A DNA stretch of 64,000 nt from Octopus vulgaris (taxonomy: Eukaryota): assembly GCA_951406725.2 (NCBI GenBank), contig OX597830.1, positions 64,480,001 to 64,544,000 of the forward strand. Direction: 5' to 3'. Positions 27,623 through 29,182 of the stretch are shown one piece after another; the stretch's first letter is position 1; the number at the start of each line of letters is the position of its first letter. The notes below the pieces were generated by a model, which saw only the letters and a list, made by a program, of their open reading frames with translations, was not told where the DNA came from and ran no database searches. The position numbers were made by a program, and so were the translations under genes.

Positions 27623-27719
27623 TGCAGCTGAAGATTGCTCTGCATTTTAAATTGATGTAATGAAATGAAATGATTGCATTGTTCAGTAAAATGGAGTCGC
27701 ATGAAACGATCGTACTGCA
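27623..27719 (+). ncRNA. Candidate minimal type-I hammerhead ribozyme
   Basis: Stem I TGCAG/CTGCA, CTGAAGA 27628-34, stem II TGC/GCA with a long loop, GAAAC-GATC-GTA (palindromic stem III). Confidence 0.65.
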
Positions 27720-27929
27720 TTACCTCTGGATGTCGTTGTTGCTTCTTTTGATTTTAATCACCTTATTTTGAAATTGTAAGGATAATGCCATACTAAATTC
27801 TAGTGCCTCAACATAAGTACCATATTCATCTGAATCTAAATTTATATATATATATATATATATATATATATATATATATATATACACTAGTCTGGATAGA
27901 ATTGACATATCGGTTCTATTCTAGCAAAA

Positions 27930-27969
27930 ACTATCCGACGAACGGCAACGTGAAACTCAGAGTAACAGG
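27930..27969 (+). ncRNA. Degenerate hammerhead-like motif
   Basis: CCGACGA (U4->C), stem II ACG-GCAA-CGT, GAAACTCAGAGTA; stem I decayed. Confidence 0.4.
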
Positions 27970-28384
27970 TTTTGTTGAATTTTCTGCTGCTTTAAATAAA
28001 GCATATTACTCTACCACTGGTATTTGAGTACTCTTTTTTCCACCTTGTTTCACATTTATGTGTTTACTCCGGTATATATATATATATATATATATATATT
28101 AACGGATATATTCCATAGTAAAAGTTTAGTATACATACCTACTCGTGAGTGGATATGTACGTGTGTGTGTGTGTGTGTGTGTGTGTGTGAGAGAGAGAGA
28201 GAGAGAGAGAGAGAGAGAGAGAGAGAGGGAGTGTGTGTGTATGTGTGTGACCGAGAGAGATAGAGATAGAGAGAGTGTGTGTTTGTGCTTAAGTTTGTGT
28301 AGAAGAGAACAAGTGCGTGCACAGTGGGACAATAAAATGAAAAGAGTTAAGTTGTACAGGAAACGAAATATAGAAGGATATTAG

Positions 28385-28438
28385 CTCCACGACTGAATTA
28401 ACCGTTTCAAGTTCCACTTTGAATCGTCCTCAGGGGAG
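28385..28438 (-). ncRNA. Candidate hammerhead ribozyme (intact core, weak stem II)
   Basis: Minus strand CTCCC-CTGAGGA-...-GAAAC-GGTTAATTCA-GTC-GTGGAG. Confidence 0.45.
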
Positions 28439-29040
28439 ACGATACAAGTATCAGAATGGTATATGTGTTATACATACATACATGTGTGTGTGTGTGTATA
28501 TGTGTATGTGCGTACGTATGTATATCGTGTTATAGTATTGACGAGAGCTCGAAGAACAAGATTGAAACATTTAATTGAATTGGAAGCCGATATGCGAATA
28601 CAAGTAATTAAATTCCACATTGTTGTATATACTGAGGACTTTATTAAACCGTTGTCGTCTTAGTCTTAATCTTGAGGTGTGTGTGTGTGTGTGTGTGTGT
28701 GTCTGTGTGTGTGTGTGCGTGCGTGTGTGTGTGTGTGTATGTGTTGTATGTATGTATGCATGTATTTTATAGATTTATATCATACTTATATAAAAAAATA
28801 TATATACATACACAGATGCACAAACATACACACACATGCCTATCTATCTACGTACGTATGTATGTATGTATGTATGTACGTATGTACGTACGTACGTATG
28901 TATCTATCTATCTATCTATCTATCTATCTATCTATCTATCTATCTATCTATCTTTCTCTCTCTCTCTCTCTCTCTCTCTCTCTTTCTCTCTCTCTCTCTC
29001 TCTATCTATCTATCTATCTATCTATCTATCTATCTATCTA

Positions 29041-29182
29041 TTATTCTTAAACAAGAATGTCATTGATAGTGAGTTCAACAGTTTTGGCCTGTTAAACTGT
29101 TCATCTTCAACTTTCATCGGGCGATGGCTAAATTGGTCGAAACTTCGAAGTCACTGTCAGTAACATTCTTGCTTAAGAATAA
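29041..29182. repeat. ~48-bp imperfect inverted repeat made of hammerhead-like 3' halves
   Basis: Arms 29041-29089 and 29135-29182; right arm reads GAAAC-TTCGAA-GTC-ACTG. Confidence 0.75.

What the first reader, a model, noticed from the sequence alone, without database searches (positions are those of the whole stretch)
27623..29182. Four different hammerhead-like loci packed into 1.6 kb between microsatellites
Seen: 27623-27719 (+; intact CUGAAGA/GAAA/GUA, 5-bp stem I, palindromic ACGAUCGU stem III), 27930-27969 (+; U4C), 28385-28438 (-; intact core) and an inverted pair at 29041-29182. Each lies in a 150-300-bp island bounded by simple repeats, and the flanks are unrelated to each other. 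Established: minimal type-I hammerheads with palindromic stem III occur in the terminal repeats of Penelope-like elements and retrozymes and can cleave as dimers. Inference: several distinct small ribozyme-bearing retroelement families insert into microsatellites here, and they may be uncatalogued in cephalopods.
Basis: partly seen in the sequence, partly recalled or inferred. Interest (0 to 1): 0.72.

Follow-up and report, generated by a model that had tools for sequence, protein, structure and literature searches.

The report
Hydra-retrotransposon tails carrying variant hammerheads
Three of the four flagged spots are broken tail ends of common jumping genes (Penelope-like elements) that each carry a predicted self-cutting hammerhead RNA, the fourth is likely a decayed relic, and the one unusual point is that two of these families carry C instead of the normally fixed U at position 4 of the catalytic core, which would likely make them slower cutters.

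Summary
The motifs are real, but they are not a unit and mostly not new. Loci 1, 2 and 4 are 5'-truncated 3' ends of three multi-copy families (3307, 1763 and 1138 first-look candidates) that end at (TA)n. Family 2 is a full 3.4-kb Hydra-clade Penelope-like element (710-aa RT plus GIY-YIG protein). Families 1 and 4 link to decayed Hydra-type ORFs at one locus each. Only locus 1 is intact here. Locus 2 has a broken stem-I pair, the 'inverted pair' is the usual inverted truncated copy with no intact core, and locus 3 has no family. U4C is not decay: 29 of 29 nearest family-2 copies read CCGA, family 4 descends from CCGA, and CCGA-core matches number 14,587 against 3,880 for the reversed control. 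The youngest, ORF-intact family-2 subfamily appears to have gone back to CUGA. An octopus Hydra element with a hammerhead is already published, so 'uncatalogued in cephalopods' is only partly right. This scan noted the C4 core before on other DNA. Cleavage is untested.

The parts
27521..27843 (+). Family 1: 5'-truncated 3' end (pLTR) of a Hydra-type Penelope-like element
   Evidence: long non-coding 3' region and upstream ORF remnant in L223
27623..27719 (+). Type-I hammerhead, canonical CUGAAGA core, 68-nt extended stem II, palindromic stem III; predicted cut after 27714
   Evidence: core intact in 25 of 29 other copies
27843..27884 (.). (TA)21 tract at the family-1 3' end; family 2 begins directly after it
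27886..28073 (+). Family 2: 5'-truncated pLTR of a 3.4-kb Hydra-clade element, including the 66-nt optional tail (28007-28073)
27926..27973 (+). Type-I hammerhead with U4C core CCGACGA (C4 = 27936), short stem II with GNRA loop, stem III ACUCAGAGU; predicted cut after 27964; private G-to-A change at 27933 breaks stem I
28073..28099 (.). (TA)13 tract at the family-2 3' end
28385..28438 (-). Hammerhead-like motif with canonical core and imperfect stems; no family found; likely decayed relic
29036..29110 (-). Family 4: inverted 5'-truncated copy; core destroyed
29118..29278 (+). Family 4: 5'-truncated pLTR; stem II, GAAAC, palindromic stem III ACUUCGAAGU and GUC (C17 = 29152) kept, 5' core and 5' strand of stem I lost

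Best explanation
Loci 1, 2 and 4 are independent, 5'-truncated insertions of three Penelope-like retrotransposon families (Hydra clade shown for family 2, likely for 1 and 4) at TA microsatellites, each family carrying a type-I hammerhead 110-130 nt from its 3' end that is predicted to cut weakly, as a dimer or with help from the element's protein. Shown: multi-copy families, fixed 3' ends at (TA)n, inverted truncated partners, a full ORF flanked by hammerhead-bearing repeats for family 2, and a C4 core in families 2 and 4. Inferred: the GIY-YIG nuclease nicks (TA)n; reverse transcription starts downstream of the hammerhead on an RNA still uncut (or rejoined) at that site, since copies run through it, and aborts early. 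Because insertion does not need cutting, a slower C4 core is tolerated for long periods and can flip back to U4 by ordinary CpG mutation. The copies in this window are likely inert, with locus 1 the only candidate cutter. Locus 3 is likely an older relic of the same kind.
For: Copy searches. (TA)3 at the family 3' end in 23 of 29, 26 of 29 and 17 of 29 copies against 15.5% of random flank positions. Adjacent opposite-strand partial copies in 11 of 29 family-1 and 9 of 29 family-2 loci. Stop-free ORFs in 9 of 20 fetched loci, with 3.43-kb tandem units. RWK, DKT, YRDD, CxCx5C-type linker, CxxC and CxH, no CCHH cysteines, matching the Hydra definition. Published Hydra-2_Amil hammerhead has the same stem I and near-same stem III as family 2. 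ORF remnants upstream of family 1 (L223, E 2e-14) and family 4 (L107, E 6e-5). Stem III self-duplex -10.0, -7.4, -12.5 kcal/mol with no hairpin in isolation. HHR mutants do not affect insertion in vitro and cleavage needs protein in the anole element (PMC11167929). U4C lowers activity in vitro but permits viroid infectivity (as cited in PMC3088659).
Against: No cleavage or RNA-end data. ORF links for families 1 and 4 rest on one decayed locus each. All 10 stop-free ORFs, and one more, belong to the CUGA subfamily, while the 3 full-length CCGA copies seen are frameshifted; this also fits C4 being harmful or C4 copies borrowing protein. Within families there is almost no covariation (1 of 21 pairs, and that predicted fold is not the hammerhead fold). 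Pfam and PDB gave nothing for the 710-aa protein. Locus 3 has no homologue.
Confidence: 0.82

Rival explanations
1. The C4 hammerheads are catalytically dead. The fold survives only as a structure bound by the element's protein, or by hitch-hiking, and C4 subfamilies spread regardless.
For: Cutting is dispensable for insertion in vitro. ORF-intact young copies seen here are all CUGA. Naiads spread without canonical hammerheads.
Against: The rest of the core and stems I and III are kept across unrelated C4 families: stem I of 4 or more pairs in 21 of 35 hand-picked rows, with different sequences. The A6G control shows far less excess (5,774 against 3,252 reversed). A viroid U4C variant still works in vivo.
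Confidence: 0.25
2. The islands are small non-autonomous retrozyme-like elements that spread as circular RNA monomers.
For: The islands are short, and retrozymes are proposed to derive from pLTRs (bioRxiv 10.64898/2026.07.22.740005, part 1 read). Family 1 has at least 1.7 kb of non-coding 3' sequence in several copies.
Against: 3' ends are fixed while 5' ends vary and invert. No tandem repeat of the short islands appears in the window or among the extra hits of the fetched loci; family-2 tandems are 3.4-kb ORF units.
Confidence: 0.06
3. The cluster is a functional array in which neighbouring hammerheads cooperate or regulate a host transcript.
For: Loci 1 and 2 lie on one strand about 250 nt apart.
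Against: Their stems III cannot pair with each other (-0.1 kcal/mol). Three of four motifs are damaged. Flanks of 87 family loci hold 7 foreign core matches against 5.6 expected, so there is no general clustering.
Confidence: 0.03
4. Locus 3 alone is a chance motif.
For: Single copy by DNA search, two pattern searches and contig laying. The one other 25-nt match has no core. All three stems are imperfect.
Against: 0 of 100 shuffles reach its descriptor level (descriptor set after the fact). It sits about 95 nt upstream of a microsatellite with a pyrimidine-rich tail, like the other three.
Confidence: 0.35

Closest known systems
Hydra clade of Penelope-like elements (Craig et al. 2021, PMC8557442; includes Hydra-1_Obim from Octopus bimaculoides)
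   Same: Single ORF with RT then GIY-YIG; RWK, DKT, CxCx5C-type linker, no CCHH; (TA)n target; hammerhead near the 3' end, often with unpaired U on both sides of stem II as in family 1; family-2 stems I and III nearly equal to Hydra-2_Amil.
   Different: All Hydra hammerheads in their table read CUGA (their descriptor required it), whereas families 2 and 4 carry CCGA. Units are longer (3.4 kb with a 1.2-kb 3' UTR; about 2.3-kb UTR in family 1) than the usual under 3 kb. Family 1 has a 63-68-nt stem II and an Asn-rich insert before the nuclease.
Minimal PLE hammerheads (Cervera and de la Pena 2014, PMC4209133)
   Same: Type I, short stem I, extra base after A9, palindromic stem III, dimer-type architecture, mostly lone truncated copies, opposite-strand pairs.
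   Different: The core variant they report is U3-A8. No C4 core appeared in the text parts read or in the 2 supplement files searched (one file not searchable).
U4C hammerhead variant of a viroid (Ambros and Flores 1998, seen only as cited in PMC3088659)
   Same: Same core change; reported to cut more slowly yet to remain functional in vivo.
   Different: There one variant of a viroid population; here the standing state of whole retroelement lineages with thousands of copies.
Non-LTR retrozymes (PMC7229834; bioRxiv 10.64898/2026.07.22.740005)
   Same: Type-I hammerheads in animal repeats, related to pLTRs.
   Different: Retrozymes are short non-coding tandem units; these are truncated ends of ORF-bearing elements.

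Membership tests
Hydra-clade PLE (family 2) | Single ORF, RT followed by C-terminal GIY-YIG nuclease | tested here: met
   710 aa, YRDD at 344, GVVY..YTG at 579-599; Atlas look-alikes carry GIY-YIG and RVT_1; Pfam scan itself blank
Hydra-clade PLE (family 2) | RWK motif; DKG changed to DKT | tested here: met
Hydra-clade PLE (family 2) | CCHH absent; CxxC and CxH near the C-terminus | tested here: met
   no Cys between GVVY and YTG; CKLC 666, CRH 694
Hydra-clade PLE (family 2) | CxCx5C linker | tested here: met
   exact in 2 of 6 intact copies read; the middle Cys is Phe in 4 of 6
Hydra-clade PLE (family 2) | pLTRs, tandem and inverted structure, optional tail, (TA)n target | tested here: met
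Hydra-clade PLE (family 2) | Placement in an RT phylogeny with reference clades | not tested
   reference proteins were seen only in a supplement and compared by eye
Hydra-clade PLE (families 1 and 4) | Contiguous Hydra-type ORF | tested here: inconclusive
   one decayed C-terminal remnant each, with a CxCx5C-like linker; no full ORF found
Type-I hammerhead ribozyme | Core CUGANGA / GAAA / UH | tested here: met
   met by loci 1 and 3
Type-I hammerhead ribozyme | Invariant U4, for locus 2 and family 4 | tested here: not met
   C4 in 29 of 29 nearest family-2 copies and in 9 of 13 family-4 copies with readable stem I; filed as a variant
Type-I hammerhead ribozyme | Three stems with covariation | tested here: inconclusive
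   between families stem I differs yet pairs (hand-picked rows); within families too little variation
Type-I hammerhead ribozyme | Site-specific self-cleavage | not testable with these tools
   no raw RNA reads offered
Non-LTR retrozyme | Short non-coding tandem units, each with a hammerhead | tested here: not met

The most novel reading that the evidence does not exclude
A C4 catalytic core is a long-lived, working state of hammerheads in several independent octopus Penelope-like lineages, about a fifth of the genome's above-background type-I core matches, and family 2 records a natural switch: a succession of C4 subfamilies followed by a U4 revertant that now holds the intact ORFs. Cutting rate would then be a tunable trait that shapes retrotransposon success, and the C4/U4 pair gives a direct test of what these ribozymes are for.
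Probability: 0.4. Interest if true: 0.62.

Novelty: new variant of a known kind. Interest (0 to 1): 0.4.

Why it matters
The function of hammerheads in Penelope-like elements is an open question (stated in PMC8557442). Sister subfamilies with the same protein and hammerhead scaffold but U4 or C4 make the question testable. Descriptors that demand CUGANGA miss roughly 10,700 above-background motifs in this genome (minus its reversed control). The cluster itself has no special importance.

Tried and rejected
Rfam at gathering thresholds: 0 matches. Folding z-scores: no signal for loci 1-3. Locus-3 homologues: none by DNA search, exact pattern, 2-mismatch pattern or contig laying; blanks in the laid runs are no proof of absence. 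A pattern joining a CCGA pLTR to the ORF start found 0 places; it was too strict, as such junctions exist in L098 and L131 with single differences. RNA evidence: no RNA holder listed, contigs only, so no ends or expression. Excess of 5' truncation at the cut site: too few unbiased fragments (2, 6 and 4 rows). My first guess of Neptune clade was dropped once the motifs matched Hydra. The tree had mislabelled rows and the test had an empty group; both were redone. The ORFs in L093 and L182 next to family-1 copies were not accepted as its ORF (opposite strand, or separated by other repeats). Heterodimer of loci 1 and 2 rejected. Lunse et al. 2017 and Ambros and Flores 1998 were not available; the first may list C4 or octopus variants.

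Full report
Observation. All four stretches exist at the stated places between simple repeats. Rfam found nothing at gathering thresholds. A relaxed type-I descriptor finds loci 1, 2, 3 and one more at 43532, against 0.07 per shuffle (100 shuffles, microsatellites removed). The descriptor was set after I saw the loci, so this overstates significance. Only locus 1 is intact.

Three repeat families. DNA searches gave 3307 (locus 1), 1763 (locus 2) and 1138 (locus 4) first-look candidates, 40 scored each, at about 87-91%, 97-99% and 74-87% identity. These are nearest copies, not random ones. 3' ends are fixed and abut (TA)n in 23, 26 and 17 of 29 copies, against 15.5% for random flank positions. 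5' ends vary and often carry an inverted partial copy: 11 of 29 and 9 of 29 loci for families 1 and 2, 17 of 29 for family 4, where the query itself favoured them. This is the anatomy described for Penelope-like elements (PMC8557442, passages). The 'inverted pair' is one such structure with both cores destroyed.

Parent elements. An ORF starts right behind the family-2 repeat in L098. Searching with it and fetching 20 of the 41 listed places gave 3.43-kb units flanked by hammerhead-bearing repeats, with stop-free ORFs in 9 of 20 loci. The 710-aa protein has RWK, DKT, YRDD, a CxCx5C-type linker, GVVY..YTG without CCHH cysteines, CxxC and CxH, the features that define the Hydra clade (section 11 read in full). 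Pfam and PDB were blank; Atlas neighbours carry GIY-YIG and RT families. Copies end at two sites 66 nt apart, like the tail that marks reverse-transcription starts in the anole element (PMC11167929, passages and part of the main text). Family 1 has at least 1.7 kb of shared non-coding 3' sequence and in L223 follows a decayed Hydra-type C-terminus (E 2e-14); parts of the intervening stretch recur in L236, L183 and L096. Family 4 follows a similar remnant in L107 (E 6e-5). These two links rest on one locus each.

The C4 core. All 29 other nearest family-2 copies read CCGA. Among 13 family-4 copies with a readable stem I, position 4 is C in 9, T in 2 and other in 2; CCAA (4) and CTGA (2) are the two CpG-decay products expected from CCGA (16 of 29 rows were dropped as truncated or unreadable). 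Genome-wide, with the same spacers, CTGANGA matches 45,875 times (reversed control 3,858), CCGANGA 14,587 (3,880) and the A6G control CTGGNGA 5,774 (3,252), many of the last being hits inside another family's stem II. I fetched 34 of the first 100 listed CCGA places, picked by eye for recurring motifs. 21 of 35 motif rows form a stem I of 4 or more pairs, with at least six different stem sequences shared by two or more rows or by families 2 and 4; the rows of one recurring type form no stem I. In contigs of four public runs from four coded organisms, T at position 4 makes up 2.5%, 63%, 59% and 12% of summed depth (a rough measure), so both states occur beyond this assembly.

Order of events in family 2. 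Of 86 motif rows in all fetched loci (some places may count twice), 36 are CTGA with a linked stem-II change, 45 CCGA and 5 other. All stop-free ORFs are in the CTGA group; three full-length CCGA copies are frameshifted and 95.5-95.9% alike, against 95.6-98.6% among CTGA copies. In a tree of 35 repeats with position 4 masked, the most diverged subfamilies are CCGA and the CTGA group is one branch (99/97) nested among younger CCGA groups in the unmasked drawing. Joining it to the old group is rejected at p-AU 0.036. The groups were named after seeing a tree and the root is assumed from age, so reversion to U4 is likely, not proven.

Locus 3. No family was found. It passes a descriptor that 0 of 100 shuffles pass and has the same distance to a microsatellite as the others, so I put about 60-65% on a decayed relic.

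Why four in 1.6 kb. A shared (TA)n target, with family 2 starting right behind the TA tract that ends family 1. Flanks of 87 family loci show 7 foreign matches against 5.6 expected, so clustering is not general. From the fragment rates (small counts), one or two such trios are expected somewhere in the genome by chance alone; this is my arithmetic.

Mechanism. Shown: element anatomy, target, core states. From published work: PLE hammerheads have palindromic stems III and cut weakly as dimers (PMC4209133, parts 1-2 of 4; review PMC6765202, passages); in the anole element cleavage needs the protein and is dispensable for insertion; U4C lowers activity but is viable in a viroid (PMC3088659, passages). 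Computed: stems III of families 1, 2 and 4 self-pair at -10.0, -7.4 and -12.5 kcal/mol and do not cross-pair between 1 and 2. Inferred: copies that span the cut site came from uncut or rejoined RNA, so selection on cutting speed is weak and C4 is tolerated. Against: the intact ORFs seen all carry U4.

Novelty. PLE hammerheads, (TA)n targeting and an octopus Hydra element are published (supplement part 2 of 59 read; searches). A lineage-wide C4 core in PLEs did not turn up in searches. Lunse et al. 2017 was not available, one supplement file of PMC4209133 could not be searched, and bioRxiv supplements are closed; these could hold prior cases. Also seen: bioRxiv 10.64898/2026.07.22.740005 (part 1 of 5), PMC6962438 and PMC7229834 (passages). 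Two earlier notes of this scan report the C4 core in Hydra elements; they gave me the Hydra lead, which I then tested. Verdict: ordinary retrotransposon debris, with one real and testable variant.

Noticed in passing
window 43526-43617 (+): Another type-I hammerhead-like motif with canonical core and a 60-nt stem II, about 30 nt before a TA tract; no match among fetched loci.
   Followed up: partly
window 49046-49093 (+): Hammerhead-like motif with 4-bp stem II and palindromic AUGCAUGCAU stem III; weak match (67%) to L011.
   Followed up: partly
window 61920-62005 (-): Weaker core match with long stem II and 3-bp stem I.
   Followed up: no
window 27635-27702: Family-1 stem II is a 63-68-nt irregular hairpin (-12.7 to -16 kcal/mol), far longer than in the published Hydra table; copies vary by 5-nt units near the loop.
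   Followed up: partly
L195, L198, L205, L208, L215: A recurring CCGACGA motif with stem II and GAAAC but no type-I stem I; may be the rearranged hammerheads that other notes of this scan describe.
   Followed up: no
G000 C1 first 3.9 Mb (one search list): One CUGA family with GUU cleavage triplet makes up roughly a third of the listed matches, implying over 10,000 copies.
   Followed up: no
L093 1815-2747, L132, L223: Hydra-type ORFs with long Asn-rich, AAT-repeat-like inserts between RT thumb and nuclease, in frame in L093.
   Followed up: partly
L182 2399-3821 and 6725-8160: 1.4-kb inverted duplication (98.7%) that includes family-1 ends plus flanking DNA, on small contig C32.
   Followed up: no
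window 30289-30584: 159-bp tandem duplication, 1.9 copies.
   Followed up: no
window 24609-25163 (+), 25764-26258 (+), 13676-14224 (-): Open frames that look like a mariner transposase, a LINE C-terminus and a Helitron-type helicase piece (names from recall).
   Followed up: no
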